Part shown: piece after piece, positions 18,491-43,906 of the stretch
Position numbering within the stretch: the stretch's first letter is position 1
Layout of the letters: each line of letters begins with the position of its first letter
Assembly (NCBI RefSeq): GCF_009914755.1
Contig: NC_060947.1
Reading direction: 5' to 3' (one strand)
Length of the DNA: 64,000 nt
From: the human T2T-CHM13v2.0 reference genome, Homo sapiens
Translations under genes and position numbers: made by a program
The notes under the pieces: generated by a model
What the model was told of the DNA's origin: nothing
Databases searched by the model: none
Seen by the model: the letters and a program-made list of their open reading frames with translations, nothing else

Positions 18491-19040
18491 TGTGATGGTT
18501 AATATTGACTATCAACTTGATTGGATTGAAGGAGGCAAAGCATTCTTCCTGGGTGTGTCTGTGAGGGTGTTGCCAAAGGAGATTAACATTTGAGTCAGTG
18601 GACTGGGAAAGGCAGACCCACACTCAAGCTGGGTGGGCCCCATCTAATCAGCTGCTAGCCTGGCTAGGATAAAAACAGACAGAAGAATATGGAAGGATTA
18701 GACTGGCTGAGTCTTCCAGCCTCCATCTTTCTCCCTTGCTGGATGCTTCCTGCCCGTGAACATCAGACTTCAAGTTCTTCAGCTGTCAGACTCTCGGACT
18801 TACACCAGTGGTTTGCCAGGGGCTCTTGGGCCTTCGGCAATAGACAGAAGGCTGCACTGTCAAATTCCCTACTTTTGAGGTTTTGGGACTCAGACTGGCT
18901 TCCTTGCTTCTCAGCTTGCAGACGGCCTATTATGAGACTTCAGCTTGTGATCATGTGAATCAGTACTTCTTAATAAACTCCCCTTCATATATACATCTGT
19001 CTGATTAGTTCTGGCCCTCTGGAAAACCCTGACTAATACG
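18491..19040 (+). mobile_element. MLT2A solo LTR (HERV-L family)
   Basis: TGTGATGGTTAATA...TCAACTTGATTGGATTGAAGGA...CCCTGACTAATAC; TSD-like CTCAT / TTCAT. Confidence 0.9.
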
Positions 19041-32464: not shown

Positions 32465-33037
32465 TGTGATGGTTAATACGAAGTGTCAACTTGATTGGAT
32501 TAAAGGATGCAAAGTGTTGTTTCTGGGTGTATCTGGGTGTTTCTGGGTGTTGCCAGAAGAGATTTGAGTCAGATGACCAGGAAAGGAAAACCCACCCTCA
32601 GGAAGACCCACCCACAATGTGGGTGGGCACAATCCAGTTGGATACCCGCACGGCTAGAAAAAACAGGCAGAAGGTGGAAGAAGCTGACTTGCTGAATCTT
32701 CCAGCCTTCATCTTTCTCCCATCCTGGATGCTTGCTGCCCTTGAATATCAGACTCCAAGTTTGGCTTTTGGACTGTTGGACTTACACCAGTGGTTTGCCA
32801 GGGGCTCTCGGGCCTTTGGCCACAGACTGAAGGCTGCACTGTCTATCGGCTTCCCTACTTTGGAGGTTTTGCGACTGGGACGGAGCCACTACTGGCTTCC
32901 TTGCTCCTCAGCTTGCAGACTACCTGTTGTGGGACTTGGCCTTGTGATCATGTGAGTCAATTCTCCCTAGTAAACTCCCTTTCATATATACATATATCCC
33001 ATTAGTTTCTTCCCTCTAGAGAACATTTACTAATACA
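32465..33037 (+). mobile_element. MLT2A2-like solo LTR
   Basis: TG...CA ends; perfect 5-bp TSD CCAGG (32460-32464 / 33038-33042). Confidence 0.92.
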
Positions 33038-33045
33038 CCAGGTAT

Positions 33046-33752
33046 AGTTATGAGTTGAATTGTGTCTCCCTCAAATTTATACATTGTAGTGGGGGTTAGG
33101 ACTGAAGAGGAAGACCCACCCTCAGGAAGACCCAGCCACAATGTTCTAATGCCCTTTGGTATCTGTTTCTGTGTTAGTTTGCTAAGGATAACAGCTTCCA
33201 ACTCCATCCATGTTTCTGCAAAGGACATGATCTCATTCCTTTTTATGGCTGCATAGTATTCCATGGTGTATATGTACCACATTTTCTTTATCCAGTCTAT
33301 CATTGATGGGCATTTAGGTTGATTCCATGTCTTTGCTATGTGAACTGTGTGTCAATGAACATATGTGTGCATGTATCTTTATAATAGAATGATTTACATA
33401 TATGTCAAAAGGGGACTTTGCAGATGTGTTTAATTGAATATGTTGAGGTGGAGAGACTATCTTGAATTATCCAGGTAAACTCAATGTAATCATGAAAGCC
33501 CTTACAGGAGTCAGAGAGAAATCTGAATTGGCTATGCTGCTGGCTTTAAATGCAAGCAGTCTCTAGAAGTTGAAAAAGAAAATGAATTCCTTCCTAGAGC
33601 CTCCAGAAGGAACAAGTCCTACCAAATCTTTGAGTATAGCCCAAAAAGACTGGCTTTAGACTTCTAGCCTCAAGCACTGTAAGATAAAACAATGTTCTTT
33701 TGAGCTACCAAATTTATGATTATTTGTTACTTCAGCAACAGGAAACATATTA
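33046..33752 (+). mobile_element. MLT1(C/D)-like MaLR LTR broken by a complex insertion
   Basis: GTTATGAGTTGAATTGTGTCTCCC start; resumes at ~33400 GGGGACTTTGCAGATG...CTAGAGCCTCCAGAAGGAAC...TTTGTTAC..CAGCAACAGGAAAC. Confidence 0.75.
33155..33400 (-). mobile_element. Internal L1 fragment (ORF2 end / 3' UTR start) with no poly-A
   Basis: Translates as IDWIKKMWYIYTMEYYAAIKRNEIMSFAETWMELEAVILSKLTQKQ (L1 ORF2 C-terminus). Confidence 0.9.
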
Positions 33753-33932
33753 ATTTACATGACAGCAACTGAACTACGTCTTTCCCTCCACAGGGGGAAG
33801 AACCTCTTTTCCTTTCCCCATGATATATTTTTCAATGTAAAACAGAAATGAATCAAAGCCACTTCTGTTTATGAAAAATCTACTCTGCTCCTTTCTGCAC
33901 ATTTCACTGGTGATTATTCTGAGAGTTAAAAG

Positions 33933-34552
33933 TTTGAACCCAAAAGTATCTGAGACAGGACTCAATCAATTTAGAAAGTTTATTTTCCAAGGTTAAGCAC
34001 GTGCCTGTGACATAGCTTCAGGAGGTCTCGATGACGTGTGCCCAAGGTGATCAGAGTAAACCCTCCATTTATATATTTTATGGAGATATAATATATCTAC
34101 CAAGACATGTAAGGTGTATGTTGGTTCGATCTGGAAAGGTGGGAGTGCTTGAAGCAGAGGCTTTCAGGTCATAGGTAGATTTAAAGATTTTCTGATTGTC
34201 AATTGGTTGCAACAGTTATTATCTAAAGACCTGAAATCAATAGAAAGGAATATCTGAGTTATGATAAGGGGTTGTGGAGCAAGGTTTTACCATGCAGATG
34301 AAGCCTCCGGGTAGCAGGCTTCAGAGAGAATACATTGTAAATGTTTCTTATCAGACTTACCATCCGTGTTTAAGTGAATGCTGGTTGGCTTTTCCAGAAT
34401 TCCAAAAGGAAGGAGGATATAATGAGCCATGTTTGATCCCACTCCCCATAATGACCTGAACTAGTTCTTCAGGTTAATTTTGGAATGCCCTTGCTGAGAG
34501 GAGGGGTCTGTTCAGATGACCGAGGGGCTCAGAATTTTATTTTTGCTCTACA
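33933..34552 (-). mobile_element. MER4-family ERV1 solo LTR
   Basis: Reverse complement begins TGTAGAGCAAAAATAAAATTCTGAGCCCC...CAAGGGCATTCCAAAATTAACCTGAAGAACTAGTTCAGG; other end ...CCTGTCTCAGATACTTTTGGGTTC. Confidence 0.75.
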
Positions 34553-34801
34553 ATGGATTAATAAATAGTGACTGGTGCATATAAATTCAGAAATGTGCAT
34601 TAATTATTATTCAGTGGTGATGCAATTATCTCATGTTCATGGGACCACTAAGTGGTGGAATCAGGGGTCAAATTTAGGCATGGGTTCCAGTGTCACATGC
34701 TTTCTATTGGCCATATGGCTTCTCTGGTTGGAAGGTTTCAACACTACCATAGTTATCCCTTTCCTACTGTATCCTTCTACTGCCTCAGCCGTCTTTCTCA
34801 G
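34118..34801 (+). repeat. Copy 1 of the 684-bp direct duplication flanking the HERV-H provirus
   Basis: Matches 40517-41200 except 9 substitutions and no indels (hand count); abuts the first base of the 5' LTR. Confidence 0.97.
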
Positions 34802-35254
34802 TGTCAGGCCTCTGAGCCCAAGCCAAGCCATCGCATCCCCTGTGACTTGCACATATATGCCCAGATGGCCTGAAGTAACTGAAGAATCACAAAAGAAGTG
34901 AATATGCCCTGCCCCACCTTAACTGATGACATTCCACCACAAAAGAAGTGTAAATGGCCGGTCCTTGCCTTAACTGATGACATTACCTTGTGAAAGTCCT
35001 TTTCCTGGCTCATCCTGGCTCAAAAAGCACCCCCACTGAGCACCTTGCAACCCCCACTCCTGCCCGCCAGGGAACAAACCCCCTTTGACTGTAATTTTCC
35101 TTTACCTACCCAAATCCTATAAAACGGCCCCACCCTTATCTTCCTTCGCTGACTCTCTTTTCGGACTCAGCCCGCCTGCACCCAGGTGAAATAAACAGCC
35201 ATGTTGCTCACACAAAGCCTGTTTGGTGGTCTCTTCACACGGACGCGCATGAAA
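34802..35254 (+). promoter_or_regulatory. 5' LTR7 (probably LTR7up-like) promoter/enhancer
   Basis: TGTCAGGCCTCTGAGCCCAAG...GGACGCGCATGAAA; TATAAAA 35118-35124; AATAAA 35190-35195; two U3 repeat units each containing ACAAAAGA (34889-34896, 34939-34946). Confidence 0.93.
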
Positions 35255-35256
35255 TT

Positions 35257-35274
35257 TGGTGCCGTAACTCGGAT
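35257..35274 (+). other. Primer-binding site complementary to tRNA-His
   Basis: TGGTGCCGTAACTCGGAT immediately after the 5' LTR, one mismatch to TGGTGCCGTGACTCGGAT. Confidence 0.93.
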
Positions 35275-35397
35275 CGGGGAACCTCTCTTGGGAGATCAAT
35301 CCCCTGTACTCCTGTTCTTTGCTCCATGAGAAAGATCCACCTATGACCTCAGGTCCTCAGACCGACCAGCCCAAGGAACATCTCACCAATTTCAAAT

Positions 35398-35406
35398 CAG
35401 GTAAGT
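35398..35406 (+). promoter_or_regulatory. HERV-H major splice donor (CAG/GTAAGT)
   Basis: Exact consensus 5' splice site ~145 nt downstream of the 5' LTR, where HERV-H chimeric transcripts typically splice. Confidence 0.7.
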
Positions 35407-36039
35407 GGCCTCTTCTTACTCTCTTCTCCAACCTCTCTGTCCCTCAACCACTTTCTCCTTTCCACTCTTCAATCTCTCCCTTCTCTTAATTTCAATTCCT
35501 TTCATTTTCTGGGAGAGACAAAGGAGAAACGTTTTATCCGTGGACCCAAAACTCCGGCGCCGGTCACAGACTGGGAAGGCAGCCTTCCCTTAGTGTTTAA
35601 TCACTGCAGGAATGCCTCTCTGATTATACACCCACGTTTCAAGGGTGTCAGACCACGCAGGGACGCCTGCCTTGGTCCTTCACCCTTAGTGGCAAGTCCC
35701 GCTTTTCTAGGGAAGGGGCAAGTACCTCAAACCCTTCTCTCCTTGTCTCTACCCCTTCTCTGCTTTTCTGGGATAGGGGCAAGTACCCCTCAACCCCTTC
35801 TCCTTCACCCTTAGCGGCAAGTCCCGCTTTTCTACGGGACAAGAACCCCCAATCCCTTATTTCCACACCCCAACCTCTTATCTCTGTGCCCCAATCCCTT
35901 ATTTACGTGCCCCAACCTCTTATCTCTGTGCCCCAATTCCTTATTTCCATGCCCCAACCCTTTCTCTGCTTTTCTGGAGGGCAAGAACCCCCAACCCCTT
36001 CTCCGTGTCTCTACTCTTTTCTCTGGCCTTGCCTCCTTC

Positions 36040-37232
36040 ACTATGGGCAAGCTTCCACCTTCCATTCCTCCTTCTTCTCCCTTAGCCTATATTCTTAAGA
36101 ACTTAAAACCTCTTCAACTCTCACCTGACCTAAAATCTAAGCATCTTATTTTCTTCTGCAATGCCGCTTGAGGCCAATACAAACTCGACAGTAGTTCCAA
36201 ATAGCCGGAAAATGGCACTTTCAATTTTTCCATCCTACAAGATCTAAATAATTCTTGTCGTAAAATGGGCAAATATGGTCTGAGGTGCCTGACGTCCAGG
36301 CATTCTTTTACACATCAGTCCCTTCCTAGTCTCTGTGCCCAGTGCAACTCGTCCCAAATCTTCCTTCTTTCCCTCCCGCCTGTCCCCTCAGTCCCAACCC
36401 CAAGCGTCGCTGAGTCTTTCTAATCTTCCTTTTCTACAGACCCATCTGACCTCTCCCCTCCTCGCCAGGCCAAGCTAGGTCCCAATTCTTCCTCAGCCTC
36501 CGCTCCTCCACCCTGTAATCTTTTTATCGCCTCCCCTCCTCACACCTGGTCCGGCTTACAGTTTCGTTCAGTGACTAGCCCTCCCCCACCTGCCCAGCAA
36601 TTTACTCTTAAAAAGGTGGCTGGAGCCAAAGGCATAGTCAAGGTTAATGCTCCTTTTTCTTTATCCCAAATCAGAAGCGTTTAGGTTCTTTTTCATCAAA
36701 TATAAAAACCCAGCCCAGTTCATGGCTCATTCGGCAGCAACCCTGAGACGCTTTACAGCCCTAGACCCTAAAAGGTCAAAAGGCCATCTTATTCTCAATA
36801 TACATTTTATTACCCAATCTGCTCCCGACATTAAATAAAACTCCAAAAATTAGAATCTGGCCCTCAAACCCCACAACAGGACTTAATTAACCTCACCTTC
36901 AAGGTGTACAATAATAAAAAAAAAAGTTGCAATTCCTTCCCTCCACTGTGAGACAAACCCCAGCCACATCTCCAGCACACAAGAACTTCCAAACGCCTGA
37001 ACCGCAGCGGCCAGGCGTTCCTCCAGAACCTCCTCCCCCAGGAGCTTGCTACAAGTGCCAGAAATCTGGCCACCAGGCCAAAGAATGCCTGCAGCCCAGG
37101 ATTCCTCCTAAGCCGTGTCCCATCTGTGCGGGACCCCACTGGAAATCGGACTGTTCAACTCACCTGGCAGCCACTCCCAGAGCCCCTGGAACTCTGGCCC
37201 AAGGCTCTCTGACTGACTCCTTCTCGGCTTAG
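36040..37232 (+). pseudogene. gag: HERV-H gag remnant with two nucleocapsid zinc knuckles
   Basis: ORF 36927-37232 contains CYKCQKSGHQAKEC and CPICAGPHWKSDC; upstream part disrupted; start approximate. Confidence 0.85.
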
Positions 37233-37282
37233 CGGCTGAAGACTGACGCTGCCTGATCGCCTTGGAAGCCCCGTAGACCATC

Positions 37283-37620
37283 ATGGACGCCGAGCTTCAG
37301 GTAACTCTCACAGTGGAAGGTAAGTCCGTCCCCTTCTTAATCAATATGGAGGCTACCCACTCCGCATTACCTTCCTTTCAAAGGCCTGTTTCCCTTGCCT
37401 CCATAACTGTTGTAGGTATTGACAGCCAGGCTTCTAAACCTCTTAAAACTCCCCCACTCTGGTGCCAACTTAGACAATACTCTTTTACGCACTCCTTTTT
37501 AGTTATCCCCACCTGCCCAGTTCCCTTATTAGGCCGAGACACTTTAACTAAATTATCTGCTTCCCTGACTACTCCTGGATTACACCTGCATCTCATTGCT
37601 GCCCTTCTTCCCAATCCAGA
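37283..37620 (+). pseudogene. pro: HERV-H protease remnant, catalytic motif lost
   Basis: VEGKSVPFLINMEATHS (DTG position degenerate) ...PTCPVPLLGRDTLTKL. Confidence 0.85.
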
Positions 37621-37689
37621 GCCTCCTTTGCGTCCTCCTCTTGTATCCCCCACCTTAACCCACAAGTATAAGATACCTCTACTCCCTCC

Positions 37690-39470
37690 TTGGCGACCGA
37701 TCAAGCACGCCTTACCATCTCATTAAAACCTAATCACCCTTACGCCGCTCAACGCCAATATCTCATCCCACAGCATGCTTTGAAAGGATTAAAGCCTGTT
37801 ATCACTCGCCTGCTACAGCATGGGCTTTTAAAACCTATAAACTCTCCTTACCATTCCCCCATTTTACCTGTCCTAAAACCAGACAAGCCTTACAAGTTAG
37901 TTCAGAATCTGCGCCTTATCAACCAAATGTTTTGCCTATCCACCCCGTGGTGCCAAACCCATATACTCTTCTATCCTCAATACCTCCCTCTACTACCCAT
38001 TATTCTGTTCTGGATCTCAAACATGCTTTCTTTACTATTCCTTTGCACCCTTCATCCCAGCCTCCCTTTGCTTTCACTTAGACTGACCCTGACACCCATT
38101 AGGCTCAGCAAATTACCTGGGCTGTACTGCCGCAAGGCTTCACAGACAGCCCCCATTACTTCAGTCAAGCCCAAATTTCATCCTCATCTGTTACCTATCT
38201 GGGCATAATTCTCATAAAAACACAGGTGCTCTCCCTGCTGATCATGTCCGAATAATCTCCCAAACCTCAATCCCTTACAAAACAACAACTCCTTTCCTTC
38301 CTAGGCATGGTTAGCGTGGTCGGAATTCTTACACAATAGCCAGGACCACACCGTGTAGCCTTTCTGTCCAAACAACTTGACCTTACTGTTTTAGCCTAGC
38401 CCTCATGTCTGCCTGCAGCAGCTGCCACTGCTTTAATATTTTTAGAGGCCCTCAAAATCACAAACTATGCTCAACTCACTCTCTACATTTCTCATAACTT
38501 CCAAAATCTATTTTCTTCCTCATACCTGACGCATATACTTTCTGCTTCCCGGCTCCTTCAGCTGTACTCACTCTTTGTTAAGTCCCACAATTACCATTGT
38601 TCCTGGCCCGGACTTCAATCCGGCCTCCCACATTATTCCTGATACCACACCTGACCCCCATGACTGTATCTCTCTGATCCACCTGACATTCACCCCATTT
38701 CCCCAAATTTCCGTCTTTCCTGTTCCTCACCCTGATCACGCTTGATTTATTGATGGTGGTTCCACCAGGCCTAATCACCACACACCAGCAAAGGCAGGCT
38801 ATGCTATAGTACAAGCCACTAGCCCGCCTCTTAGAACCTCTCGTTTCCTTTCCATCGTGGAAATCTATCCTCAAGGAAATAACTTCTCAGTGTTCCATCT
38901 GCTATTCTACTACTCCTCAGGGATTATTCAGGCCCCGTCCCTTCCCTACACATCAGGCTCGAGGATTTGCCCCCACCCAGGACTGGCAAATTAGCTTTAC
39001 TCAACATGCCCAGAGTCAGGAAACTAAAATACCTCTTAGTCTAGGTAGACACTTTCACTGGATAGGTACAGGCCTTTCCTACAGGGTCTGAGAAGGCCAC
39101 CGCAGTCATTTCTTCCCTTCTGTCAGACATAATTCCTCAGTTTAGCCTTCCCACCTCTATACCGTCTGATAACAGACCAGCCTTTATTAGTCAAATCAGC
39201 CAAGCAGTTTTTCAGGCTCTTAGTATTCAGTGAAACCTTTATATCCCTTATAGTCCTCCATCTTCAAGAAAAGTAGAACGGACTAAAGGTCTTTTAAAAA
39301 CACACCTCACCAAGCTCAGCCACCAACTTAAAAAGGACTGGACAATACTTTTACCACTTTCCCTTCTCAGAAATCAGGCCTGTCCTCAGAATGCTACAGG
39401 GTACAGCCCATTTGAGCTCCTGTATAGATGCTCCTTTTTATTAGGCCCCAGTCTCATTCCAGACACCAGA
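37690..39470 (+). pseudogene. pol: HERV-H pol remnant (RT, RNase H, integrase; frameshifted and deleted)
   Basis: [26 protein letters not shown], then [12 protein letters not shown] and LPQGFTDSP in a shifted frame; integrase-like sequence with stops; end approximate. Confidence 0.88.
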
Positions 39471-40057
39471 CCAACTTAGACTGTGCCCCCCACCAAAAAA
39501 AAACTTGTCATCCCTACTATCTTCTGTCTAGTCATACTCCTATTCACCGTTCTCAACTACTCATACATGCCCTGCTCTTGTTTACACTGCCGGTTTACAC
39601 TGTTTCTCCAAGCCATCACAGCTGATATCTCCTGGTGCTATCCCCAAACTGCCACTCTTAACTCTTGAAGTAAATAAATAATCTTTGCTGGCAGGACTAT
39701 GCCGAATCTCCTTAGGCACTCTCTAATCAGATGTCCTAGGTCCTCCCAATTCTTAGACCTTTTATACCTGTTTTTCTCCTTCTCTTATTCCATTTAGTTT
39801 TTCAATTCATACAAAACCGTATCCAGGCCATCACCAATCATTCTATACGACAAATGTTTCTTCTAACATCCCCACAATATCACCCCTTACCACAAGACCT
39901 CCCTTCAGCTTAATCTCTCCCACTCTAGGCTCCCACGCCGCCCCTAATCCCACTCGAAGCAGCCCTGAGAAACATCGCCCATTCTCTCTCCATACCACCC
40001 CCCAAAAATTTTCACCACCCCAACACTTCAACACTATTTTGTTTTATTTTTCTTATT

Positions 40058-40070
40058 AAGAAGGCAGGAA
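40058..40070 (+). other. Polypurine tract
   Basis: AAGAAGGCAGGAA directly before the TG of the 3' LTR. Confidence 0.85.
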
Positions 40071-40519
40071 TGTCAGGCCTCTGAGCCCAAGCCAAGCCAT
40101 CGCATCCCCTGTGACTTGCACATATATGCCCAGATGGCCTGAAGTAACTGAAGAATCACAAAAGAAGTGAAAATGCCCTGCCCCACCTTAACTGATGACA
40201 TTCCACCACAAAAGAAGTGTAAATGGCCGGTCCTTGCCTTAACTGATGACATTACCTTGTGAAAGTCCTTTTCCTGGCTCATCTTGGCTCAAAAACACCC
40301 CCACTGAGCACCTCGCAACCCCCACTCCTGCCCGCCAGAGAACAAACCCCCTTTGACTGTAATTTTCCTTTACCTACCCAAATCCTATAAAACGGCCCCA
40401 CCGTTATCTCCCTTCGCTGACTCTCTTTTCGGACTCAGCCCGCCTGCACCCAGGTGAAATAAACAGCCATGTTGCTCACACAAAGCCTGTTTGGTGGTCT
40501 CTTCACACGGACGCGCATG
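40071..40519 (+). promoter_or_regulatory. 3' LTR7 lacking the terminal AAA
   Basis: 6 substitutions and one 1-bp indel vs the 5' LTR; AATAAA 40458-40463; ends GGACGCGCATG then host sequence. Confidence 0.95.
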
Positions 40520-41200
40520 TTGGCTCAATCTGGAAAGGTGGGAGTGCTTGAAGCAGAGGCTTTCAGGTCATAGGTAGATTTAAAGATTTTGTGATTGTCA
40601 ATTGGTTGCAACAGTTATTATCTAAAGACCTGAAATCAATAGAAAGGAATATCTGGGTTATGATAAGGGGTTGTGGAGCAAGGTTTTACCATGCAGATGA
40701 AGCCTCCGGGTAGCAGGCTTCAGAGAGAATACATTGTAAATGTTTCTTATCAGACTTACCATCCGTGTTTAAGTGAATGCTGGTTGGCTTTTCCAGAATT
40801 CCAAAAGGAAGGAGGATATAATGAGCCATGTTTGATCCCACTCCCCATAATGACCTGAACTAGTTCTTCAGGTTAATTTTGGAATGCCCTTGCTGAGAGG
40901 AGGGGTCTGTTCAGATGACCGAGGGGCTCAGAATTTTATTTTTGCTCTACAATGGATTAGTAAGTAGTGACTGGTGCATATAAATTCAGAAATGTGCATT
41001 AATTATTATTCAGTGGTGATGCAATTATCTCATGTTCATGGGACCATTAAATGGTGGAATCAGGGGTCAAATTTAGGCATGGGTTCCAGTGTCACATGCT
41101 TTCTATTGGCCATATGGCTTCTCTGGTTGGAAGGTTTCAACACTACCATAGTTATCCCTTTCCTACTGTATCCTTCTACTGCCTCAGCCTTCTTTCTCAG
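40517..41200 (+). repeat. Copy 2 of the 684-bp duplication (includes a partial MER4-family LTR, 40517-40951)
   Basis: Offset 6399 from copy 1; its first 3 bases (ATG) are shared with the LTR end. Confidence 0.97.
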
Positions 41201-42147
41201 AGTGTGCCCCATAAGTTTCTGAATGAGACTGATTCTCACTACCATTAAGTTAGAAGGGTCTCTCCTACAAACGTGCTTACCCCAAAGAGGGTCCCTTTTC
41301 AGCAGAGTAGCTCTAGAGGGAATCATCACAATGCTTGGTTAGCGTGTTCTGCCCTTTGCTTTTTTGCATGGAAAATTTTAAATGTGAGTGATCCTGGAGC
41401 TTGCAGTCTTGACTGGTTCACTCGTTAGTATCCGAGAGAGATCAGATACTCTGCCCTCCATTCTAAGGCCTAGGGCTATGTTTGACGAAACCAAAATAAT
41501 AGTCCAACGTTTCTTGATTGTCAATTTTCTCCCAGTAATAGTGTTTAAAAAGTAGTGACTAAGTAATCCAAATAATGAGGACAAGATTATTAATAGTTGG
41601 TATTGTTAATGTAAAATGTTAATGATCTTAGAAGTTCTGCAAATTCTCTTATGGAGATGTGTCAATGTACATTTGAAGATGGTGAAATTCAGTAAGGCCA
41701 AGATATCAGAGCTGGGAAATGGAAAGTGTTCATCAAAGGTCTGGGGGTGGCAGTTATTCGCATCCTGTTCTTTATTCTTTCGAGTTAAAATTCAGGCACT
41801 GACAATTCCAGGATAAAAATCTATTTCTCCTTACATATAAATCAGCCATGATTATTCTTAACTAGGAACAGCCAGGGTGTGTGCATAATCATTTAAATTG
41901 AGAGCTGAATAATGGATCTTGATTAGCAATACATTGAAGCAAATGTGGGGGAGAAATTAGAGTGCTTCTCTGTTTGTTTCATGCCTAGAATATATTAACT
42001 TTGGGGAAATGGCCCATTTTTACAGATGAGCTCAGGAAATACTCCATATGATTCAGGATTCTTTTTCCCAAAGTATTATTTCGCAATGCAGACATCAATA
42101 GTGGTGTATTAGCTGAGGTTTAGAAAGGACAAAGATAGATTATTGAA

Positions 42148-42282
42148 ATTTTCTTTTTGTAGGTACAGAGTAGGTTTATATATTTATGGACTGCATGAGA
42201 TATGTTGATACAGGCATGCCATGCATTATAAACACATCATGGAAAATGGAGTATCCATCCCCTCAAGCATGTATCCTTTTTA
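42148..42282 (-). mobile_element. Short L1MA 3' end
   Basis: TTTTTGTAGGTACAGAGTAGG...GATACAGGCATG...ATGGAGTATCCATCCCCTCAAGCAT. Confidence 0.75.
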
Positions 42283-42391
42283 ATTCAGGATACCATTTTC
42301 CTAATATTCTGTAATACTTTATTGTTGGGTTATTTTCAAAGGCTTATTAAGATCTTAACTTACACTCCCATCTTTTGTTTAAATTGATGGC

Positions 42392-42739
42392 TGTATTAGT
42401 CGGTTTTCAAACTGCTATAAAGATATATCTGGGACTGGGTAATTTATAAAGGAAAGAGGCTTAATTGAATCACAGCTCTGCATGGCTGGAGAGGCTGCAG
42501 GAAACTTACAATCATGGTGCAAGGGGAAGCAAGCACATCTTCCATGGTGGCAGGAGAGAGAGGAGCAACAGTAGGGAAACCTGCCTTATAAAACCATCAG
42601 ATCTCATGAAAACTCACTCACTGTCACACTACAGCATGGAGGAAACTGGCCCCATGATCCAATCACCTCCCTCCCTTAACACGTGGGGATTACAATTCGA
42701 GGTGAGATTTGGGTGGGGACACAGAGCCAAGCCATATCC
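42392..42739 (-). mobile_element. MST-type MaLR solo LTR (MSTA-like)
   Basis: TGTATTAGTC...GACTGGGTAATTTATAAAGGAAAGAGG...GAGATTTGGGTGGGGACACAGAGCCAAGCCATATC. Confidence 0.88.
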
Positions 42740-43906
42740 ATGAACGATGGAATAACGTAATTATTTAGAAACAGCAAATTGTGTGGTGTAATGGTATTAC
42801 TTTGCATTGGTTCATTTGGAAAGAACCATCAATGTATGCACTTCAATGAAGATATTAATTGTTCATATATTAATAGTTTCTGGATGCATTTCGTTCATAT
42901 AAATCTTTAGTAGAACTCTATTTGTGGATGAATGTATTTTTTATGGAGTTTAAAGTATATTTATTTTTATATTTAAACTTTATTAGCAACATCCCCCAGA
43001 AAACAGAATATTTCCTACAAATCTGTCCCAGCAGCAGAAAATATGGAGTGTCTTTGTACACATAGAAAGTATGTAAATGTTATGGTGAGATCTTACTAAT
43101 GAAGAATGATGTTTTTATGGCATGACAAGGCAAATATGTAAGAAAAGATAAGAAGATGTTATATGTTTTGTGCCAAATGTGTTAATAATCCTGATGTTAG
43201 ACCACAGAGGAAGAAGATGTCATATGACAGGGTATAGAGAGTTGATAGATATACCTCACTAGAAAAGAAAGGAAGGTTTATTTAGGGGTAGAATAAAGGA
43301 AAGTCTAGGATGCTGCAGAATGAAATCAGCTATTGATGGATGTACTTTAAGGATAGTAGATGATTGTATAGGCATGGGGAAAAAGAGGGAATTAATGATG
43401 CATTAAAGAAAAGTTAAAAATTTTTAAAAATATGAATTAATTTATAGAGTCCCTACTATGTGCTATAAAGAATATTTTTCATTTAAGAGAAACAAATAAG
43501 AAAAATATGAAAAGGAAAATCTATACCCCATGGCTGTAAGAATGCATTAAATTTCACTGATATAGTTCTCCCTTGGGTTTTATGCTGAGAATTCTTAAGG
43601 GAAAAAATCTCATTAATACATTTTGAAAATCTTGCATTATCTATAGTAACTCCTTATAGATTAAATGTTCATGTTTTCTCTTCCTTTTTCACTCTTCTCA
43701 CATCCCAAATTTCTCTCTTTTTTCTGTTAGATGCTATCTCTTCCTGATTGTTGATTTCCGCCTTCATATCCCAAAAGCCCTGCTTCAATCTTCCATTTGA
43801 ATCTTAATTGAATTCACATAAGACTAAGTGAATCTCACATTCACCTTAAGAAACGTCAAAACACTAAAATGTAAAAATGCTAATTACCATGTGATTGTAT
43901 GAGTCA

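What the first reader, a model, noticed from the sequence alone, without database searches (positions are those of the whole stretch)
34118..41200. Nested direct repeats predict alternative alleles, including scarless loss of the provirus
Seen: nested direct repeats, 684-bp outer and ~450-bp inner (LTRs). Inference: recombination between the outer repeats would delete 6399 bp and regenerate a pre-integration-like allele, which ordinary proviruses essentially cannot do because they leave a solo LTR. LTR-LTR recombination would delete about 5269 bp and leave a solo LTR still flanked by the duplication. The outer repeat is the longer substrate. A reverted allele could be misread as a recent insertion polymorphism or incomplete lineage sorting.
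Basis: inference. Interest (0 to 1): 0.72.

Follow-up and report, generated by a model that had tools for sequence, protein, structure and literature searches.

The report
Old provirus with giant target duplication
A defective HERV-H retrovirus on the human X chromosome sits between two copies of a 684-base piece of host DNA instead of the usual 5-base duplication, likely because one viral end was joined by cell repair rather than by the viral enzyme; this could let the whole insertion drop out again, but no such allele has been seen, and the idea is already published for other retroviruses.

Summary
Outer repeats of 684 bp (34118-34801, 40517-41200; 9 substitutions) enclose an LTR7up1 HERV-H provirus (34802-40519). 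A chrY paralogue carries left flank, one unit and right flank contiguously, so the unit is a target-site duplication. The left end is a normal TG junction. The right LTR lacks its last 3 bases and overlaps copy 2 by a 3-bp microhomology. Outer copies and LTRs are equally diverged (1.3%). Of 34 sister proviruses, 34 have complete right ends, 33 a 5-bp duplication and none a long one. This anatomy matches one-ended integration described for ASLV and HIV (about 85%).

But it is unobserved and not new as an idea (PMC5488345). It would not be scarless today (1-6 derived bases kept), and a copy1/copy2 hybrid is not diagnostic, because the outgroup allele is itself a mosaic. The one published variant here (1 of 279 people) fits a solo LTR. 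Verdict: new member of a known kind, modest interest.

The parts
33932..34553 (.). Old interspersed LTR-like repeat (about 620 bp; resembles the MER4 group, name recalled, not tested). It is whole on the left; copy 2 holds only its last ~435 bases, so copy 2 is the new, partial duplicate
   Evidence: 5 of 5 dispersed paralogues align over about 33930-34550 at 80-81%; 37 dispersed hits cover at most query 1-438
34118..34801 (+). Outer repeat copy 1 (long target-site duplication, 684 bp)
   Evidence: single contiguous copy on chrY
34258..34560 (+). Longest perfectly identical tract between the outer copies (303 bp; partner 40657-40959)
34802..35254 (+). 5' LTR, LTR7up1; begins TG exactly at the end of copy 1 (normal junction); carries the 8-bp 7up motif twice (34891, 34941)
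   Evidence: listed as LTR7up1_chrX_4891614_4897331 in PMC8912925 supplements
35257..35274 (+). Primer-binding site (tRNA-His type by family name; recalled, not tested against a tRNA)
   Evidence: same position in 30 of 30 loci
35255..40070 (+). Defective internal region: fragments of gag (zinc knuckle), protease and reverse transcriptase; longest stop-free frame 178 codons; no env-sized stretch
   Evidence: PF00098 E 1e-6, PF00077 E 5e-8, PF00078 E 1e-3 below its curated cut-off; 7 of 10 frames had no Pfam hit
40058..40070 (+). Purine-rich tract just before the 3' LTR (likely polypurine tract)
   Evidence: sequence
40071..40519 (+). 3' LTR, 449 bp, lacking the last 3 bases found at the end of the 5' LTR
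   Evidence: 61 of 61 sister 3' ends are complete
40517..40519 (+). 3-bp microhomology (ATG) shared by the trimmed viral end and the host at 34118-34120; 4 of 5 bases match
   Evidence: chance of 3 or more about 1.8%
40517..41200 (+). Outer repeat copy 2, continuing into the original right flank
34613..35119 (.). RefSeq enhancer: 189 bp in host copy 1 and 318 bp in the 5' LTR
   Evidence: hub annotation; split computed

Best explanation
This is a defective LTR7up1 HERV-H provirus flanked by a 684-bp duplication of its host target, most likely made at insertion by one-ended integration: integrase likely joined the left (U3) end normally, while the right (U5) end lost 3 bases and likely primed host repair synthesis from a 3-bp match 684 bp upstream, copying the target once more. 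Shown: the repeat, the single-copy outgroup on chrY, the normal left end, the trimmed right end with microhomology, equal divergence of both repeat pairs, and that sister proviruses lack these features. Inferred: the enzymology, by match to ASLV and HIV experiments. Predicted, not observed: recombination between the outer copies would delete 6399 bp and leave one hybrid unit; LTR-LTR recombination would delete 5269 bp, and a second step of about 1130 bp would reach the same near-empty state.
For: chrY locus L003 (G000:C24:17602313-17605940) runs left flank, one unit, right flank without a break and without the provirus, at 10-14% substitution divergence. Only the two X copies and chrY cover the unique 3' third of the unit among 40 scored hits. 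Copy 2 starts inside an older repeat that is whole on the left. Divergence is 9/684 for the outer copies and 6/449 for the LTRs, Fisher p=1.0, so both date from about the same time. Controls: 34 of the 39 sisters were tried and all 34 resolved. Complete right end 34 of 34; 5-bp TSD 33 of 34 (29 exact, 4 with one mismatch); long TSD 0 of 34, upper 95% bound 8.4%. 27 of 27 further 3' ends are complete. PMC5041404 reports aberrant proviruses with one normal end, one often truncated end, a short homology at the junction and host duplications of hundreds to thousands of bp, and gives this priming model. The direction fits: priming upstream of the first joint gives a duplication.
Against: One locus, no direct view of the event. 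Equal divergence rests on 9 and 6 differences (combined 1.3%, 95% CI 0.7-2.2%), so a gap of a few million years between insertion and duplication is not excluded. Three of the outer differences come as close pairs (p about 0.005, noticed after the fact), so they may be fewer than 9 events. Ape orthologues could not be examined. The model comes from other retroviruses in cell culture.
Confidence: 0.85

Rival explanations
1. Normal integration with a 5-bp TSD, then a later template switch or recombination with an empty chromosome rebuilt the right flank (the 'pseudo-TSD' route of PMC5488345).
For: Microhomology junctions are also typical of replication-based duplications (established knowledge). 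PMC5488345 offers such models for HML-2. The dating interval is wide.
Against: The breakpoint would have to fall within 3 bases of the LTR end by chance, on a template lacking the provirus. No segmental-duplication partner was found among 40 scored hits. The two repeat pairs are equally diverged.
Confidence: 0.1
2. A 684-bp tandem duplication existed first and the virus inserted exactly at its junction.
For: It would give the same overall layout.
Against: Needs insertion at one exact base, loss of the 5-bp TSD seen in 33 of 34 sisters, and separate loss of 3 LTR bases. chrY has one copy, though the X-Y split is much older than the insertion.
Confidence: 0.03
3. One reading: outer-repeat recombination already produces segregating, provirus-free alleles at this locus more often than solo LTRs form.
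For: 684 vs 450 bp of homology; perfect tract 303 vs 111 bp, against a quoted efficient minimum of 134-232 bp in cell culture and 300-500 bp in human meiosis (PMC2583991). The published screen normalised to 250-bp flanks, which here lie inside the duplication, so it would likely miss this allele (inference, not simulated).
Against: No DGV entry was listed for the locus in 2018, although deletions reaching beyond the LTRs were listed for others. The one variant seen fits a solo LTR (11% depth vs 7.9% expected). The same review notes events on tracts under 50 bp when repeats are about 5 kb apart, which removes much of the outer pair's advantage. A break inside the provirus would expose the inner LTRs first (inference). 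No PRDM9-type 13-mer in 34118-41200 (motif recalled).
Confidence: 0.25
4. Assembly artefact.
For: None.
Against: The copies differ at 9 sites; hg38-based tables give the same 5718-bp element, ending at the trimmed position.
Confidence: 0.01

Closest known systems
HML-2 (HERV-K) loci with long target-site duplications (PMC5488345; Mamedov 2004 as cited there)
   Same: Germline ERV flanked by a long near-identical host duplication (61-450 bp in their Table 2, beside two of 13 and 18 bp); recombination between long TSDs proposed as the source of an empty allele at 6p25.2.
   Different: Different family (HERV-H). 684 bp exceeds their longest, but they searched only 4-500 bp. Here a chrY outgroup, a trimmed end and microhomology give a mechanism; no empty allele is known here.
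Aberrant one-ended integrations of ASLV and HIV-1 (PMC5041404)
   Same: One normal end, one truncated end with short homology, host duplication of hundreds of bp.
   Different: Those were induced in culture by drugs, mutant integrase or a mutated viral end; this one is a natural germline insertion present in reference genomes.
LTR7up1 HERV-H provirus Xp22.32_H2, hg38 chrX:4,891,614-4,897,331 (PMC8912925, PMC6298018)
   Same: Same locus: same 5718-bp length and strand; the roughly 170 LTR bases printed in the supplement match 34803 onward (compared by eye), and the first 135 occur exactly in 0 of 29 sisters.
   Different: The passages and tables I saw do not mention the 684-bp duplication.
ERVH-2 / HERV-HX / HERVH Xp22.32a (cancer-expressed)
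   Same: HERV-H in the same band.
   Different: A different provirus: hg38 4,540,474-4,546,320, LTR7Y, minus strand, 5847 bp. Its cancer literature does not apply here.
Precise removal of transposable elements by short identical segments (van de Lagemaat 2005)
   Same: Loss of an element through its flanking repeats.
   Different: Seen only as a title in a reference list; the paper is not held.

Membership tests
HERV-H provirus, LTR7up1 | Two LTRs around gag/pro/pol remnants | tested here: met
HERV-H provirus, LTR7up1 | 8-bp SOX2/3-type motif of 7up/7u1 in the duplicated LTR block | tested here: met
   motif from PMC8912925 present twice in each LTR; 50-bp tandem block
HERV-H provirus, LTR7up1 | Published assignment of this locus | tested here: met
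   supplement rows label it 7up1; identity by length, strand and printed LTR sequence
HERV-H provirus, LTR7up1 | tRNA-His primer-binding site | not tested
   position and sequence agree with sisters, not compared with a tRNA
Canonical HERV-H integration | 5-bp TSD and both LTR ends complete | tested here: not met
   absent here; 33 of 34 and 34 of 34 in sisters
Long target-site duplication | Empty outgroup allele holds one copy contiguous with both flanks | tested here: met
   chrY paralogue
Long target-site duplication | Duplication as old as the insertion | tested here: met
   1.32% vs 1.34%, wide intervals
One-ended (aberrant) integration | One end joined normally | tested here: met
   U3 starts TG flush with copy 1, as in sisters
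One-ended (aberrant) integration | Other end truncated with short homology to the appended DNA | tested here: met
   3 bases missing, 3-bp overlap
One-ended (aberrant) integration | Second end joined by host polymerase and recombination | not testable with these tools
   inferred from PMC5041404
ERV locus with reverted empty allele | A provirus-free allele exists in a population or ape lineage | not testable with these tools
   no population or ape genomes held; published table shows only a solo-LTR-like call
ERV locus with reverted empty allele | Product indistinguishable from the never-inserted allele | tested here: not met
   present-day product keeps 1-6 derived bases; true only for excision soon after insertion

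The most novel reading that the evidence does not exclude
The locus is a natural germline fossil of one-ended retroviral integration with the longest ERV target duplication I found reported, and it recurrently reverts: rare human chromosomes, or a whole ape lineage, have lost the complete provirus through the outer repeats, unseen by depth-ratio screens. This would make it a clean in-cis test of outer versus inner repeat recombination and a proven case of ERV presence/absence homoplasy.
Probability: 0.25. Interest if true: 0.55.

Novelty: new member of a known kind. Interest (0 to 1): 0.3.

Why it matters
It extends long target-site duplications from HERV-K to HERV-H and ties one to a mechanism known from culture, with the Y chromosome as a built-in empty-site control. 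Two nested repeat pairs of the same age on one chromosome allow a direct comparison of solo-LTR formation with full loss. It warns that presence/absence of such an insertion is not free of homoplasy and that flank-normalised genotyping can fail here. Biological effect is probably small: no gene within 100 kb (hub annotation), and RNA scored 0 in one stem-cell table and 'moderately active' in another.

Tried and rejected
1) That the family's atypical right LTR end (AA where retroviruses usually have CA) makes aberrant joins common: rejected. 59 of 61 sister 3' ends end in AAA, yet 33 of 34 have normal 5-bp TSDs.
2) A second long TSD at sister L010, which has no 5-bp match: neither flank has a second nearby copy, and repeat paralogues show the flanks contiguous within a few bases.
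3) That the two differences at positions 8 and 11 of copy 2 were templated from the 3' LTR: a 9-mer match exists at 40284, but one of its bases is absent from the 5' LTR; probably chance, not tested formally.
4) Link to the cancer-expressed HERVH Xp22.32: different locus.
5) Ape presence of this locus: PMC6629862 supplements use identifiers without coordinates; the PMC8912925 supplement rows found gave no per-species data. Unresolved.
6) Print check: 'long target site duplications'+'endogenous retrovirus' 17 papers; 'Xp22.32'+'HERV' 8; 'HERV-H'+'long TSD'+'provirus' 0; 'HERV-H'+'terminal dinucleotide'+'LTR' 0; a five-term aberrant-integration search 0. None of the listings, nor the passages I read, describes this duplication; most listed papers were seen only as listings, and subscription papers are not searched.
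7) Five of the 39 sisters were not tried.
Full report
Observation. Self-comparison shows two nested direct repeats. The outer pair is 34118-34801 and 40517-41200: 684 bp, offset 6399, nine substitutions, no indels. The inner pair is 34802-35251 and 40071-40519: six substitutions and one 1-bp indel, offset 5269. They are the only pairs of at least 80 bp at 92% identity or more in the window.

The element. Between the LTRs lie stop-riddled remnants: the longest stop-free frame is 178 codons. Of 10 frames scanned, three hit Pfam: a zinc knuckle, a retroviral protease and a sub-threshold reverse-transcriptase piece. The supplements of PMC8912925 list LTR7up1_chrX_4891614_4897331, and Additional file 9 of PMC6298018 lists Xp22.32_H2 at the same place. 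That interval is 5718 bp, exactly 34802-40519, on the same strand. The LTR bases printed there match the window by eye, and the first 135 occur in none of 29 sisters. It is scored as bound by NANOG and KLF4, with H3K27ac and H3K4me3, RNA 0. It is not the cancer-expressed HERVH Xp22.32a, which lies at hg38 4.54 Mb.

The outer repeat is a target-site duplication. A search of the window's own genome found a paralogue on contig 24 (chrY by length; recalled) that, alone among 38 non-self hits, covers the unique last third of the unit. It reads left flank, one unit, right flank with no break and no provirus. The unit starts about 185 bases inside an older dispersed repeat that is whole on the left and cut in copy 2. 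Outer divergence (1.32%) equals LTR divergence (1.34%), p=1.0; combined 1.3% (0.7-2.2%), about 7-13 million years at assumed rates of 1.0-0.5 x 10^-9 per site per year. PMC8912925 finds 85.6% of 7up1 copies in gorilla and 6.7% in orangutan. I could not check this locus in apes.

The two ends differ. The left end begins TG directly after copy 1. The right LTR lacks the last three bases seen in the 5' LTR, and its final ATG is also the first three bases of copy 2; no 5-bp duplication follows. A match of three or more bases arises by chance about 1.8% of the time. For controls I took the 39 closest sisters by 5' LTR and tried 34; five were not tried, and for 12 the 3' position came from a second search, which favours near-complete ends. 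All 34 were resolved: 34 have complete right ends, 33 a 5-bp TSD (29 exact, 4 with one mismatch), none a long one (upper 95% bound 8.4%). All 27 further 3' ends are complete; one is probably an X/Y twin of another control. So the trimmed end and the long duplication are both exceptional and occur together.

Mechanism. The Discussion of PMC5041404 describes what happens when integrase inserts only one end: a host polymerase extends the free 3' end, often trimmed, from a short homology, and recombination gives a deletion or a duplication depending on the side; duplications run to hundreds or thousands of bases. Here the free U5 end, paired 684 bp upstream of the U3 joint and extended rightwards, would give the layout seen. 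The anatomy is shown; the enzymology is inferred (0.85). A later template switch to an empty chromosome (0.10) needs a breakpoint within three bases of the LTR end by luck. Insertion into a prior tandem junction (0.03) needs three coincidences. The family's AA right end is not a general cause, since sisters with it integrated normally.

Outer recombination would delete 6399 bp, LTR recombination 5269 bp; a solo LTR left between the outer copies could be lost in a second step of about 1130 bp. The outer pair keeps a 303-bp perfect tract against 111 bp for the LTRs. PMC2583991 quotes a 20-fold drop from 232 to 134 bp and 300-500 bp for human meiosis, but also events on tracts under 50 bp between repeats 5 kb apart, so the advantage is uncertain. 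The only population evidence I found is one of 279 genomes with 11% depth over the provirus and no DGV entry; a solo LTR predicts 7.9%. The authors did not validate this locus by PCR and note that rare calls may be false. Their ratio uses 250-bp flanks, which here lie inside the duplication, so an outer deletion would probably lower flanks and provirus together and be missed (inference, not simulated). Excision is neither shown nor excluded; a common excision allele is unlikely given the empty DGV cell.

The proposed test needs correcting. chrY matches copy 1 at 34125, 34192 and 34561 and copy 2 at the other six sites; 34128 is a CpG where two of five repeat paralogues side with copy 1 and three with neither. 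The never-inserted allele is therefore expected to look like a mosaic itself. A present-day deletion keeps 2-6 derived bases by Y polarity, or 1-5 with the other reading of 34128; a crossover in the 303-bp tract (45% of the length) keeps 34257 and 34561 in the state opposite to chrY. So the product is nearly, not fully, scarless; only a loss soon after insertion would be invisible, which matters for ape phylogeny rather than for human polymorphism. Polarity rests on one outgroup 10-14% diverged.

Prior art. PMC5488345 reports HML-2 TSDs up to 450 bp (search range 4-500 bp), an empty allele at a 111-bp-TSD locus shared with chimpanzee and orangutan, and proposes recombination between the long TSDs while noting the ambiguity with ancestral polymorphism. 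I found no description of this 684-bp duplication or of long TSDs in HERV-H, within an open-access library only.

What I read. PMC5488345: parts 2-4 of 4, no supplements. PMC6298018: passages, section 8, Additional file 9 whole, other supplements not opened. PMC5041404: passages and Discussion. PMC8912925: passages and supplement search hits. PMC6629862: supplement searches only. PMC2583991, PMC10370457, PMC3253121, PMC12145686, PMC3113919, PMC7102983: passages. van de Lagemaat 2005 and Mamedov 2004: titles and PMC5488345's account only. Unopened supplements could hold ape or variant data for this locus.

Verdict. A real, well-supported long target-site duplication on a catalogued, defective HERV-H provirus, best explained by one-ended integration. 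New member of a known kind; interest 0.3, or 0.55 if reverted alleles are found (probability about 0.25).

Noticed in passing
window 35249-35256 and sister loci L010-L111: The right LTR end of this subfamily is AA rather than the textbook CA (textbook form recalled): 30 of 30 5' LTRs and 59 of 61 sister 3' ends (one GAA, one ACA), yet integration left normal 5-bp TSDs. One paper search found nothing on it.
   Followed up: partly
L087 (G000:C6:115605365-115605631): A sister's 3' end carries the last stretch of U5 plus the start of the primer-binding site repeated in tandem (68-bp unit, two extra copies) before a complete end and an exact 5-bp TSD: another odd right end.
   Followed up: partly
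L010/L039 (G000:C23 near 123.70 Mb): Sister provirus with complete ends but no recognisable 5-bp TSD; no long duplication either.
   Followed up: yes
L111 (G000:C2:188046700-188047000): A T-rich tail and SVA-like sequence (family recalled) begin right at the TSD of a sister's 3' LTR.
   Followed up: no
L027/L109 (C24, 5.62 Mb) and L085 (C23, 91.28 Mb): Same flank after the 3' LTR on X and Y: probably one insertion copied with the X-transposed region, so these two controls are not independent.
   Followed up: partly
window 34648/34652 and 34561/34565: Paired differences: one pair keeps a short hairpin perfect in both copies, the other turns an imperfect 4-bp tandem into a perfect one in each copy; possibly templated changes.
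   Followed up: partly
window 33155-34804 and 40564-42743 vs L003: An 84-85% identical X-Y paralogous block spans the site; useful as an outgroup for this gene-free region.
   Followed up: yes
window 18491-19039 and 32465-33036: Two 74% identical copies of an older LTR-like repeat (MaLR-like, name recalled).
   Followed up: no
window 35847-35968: 21/42-bp tandem repeat in the proviral leader, with length differences among sisters.
   Followed up: no
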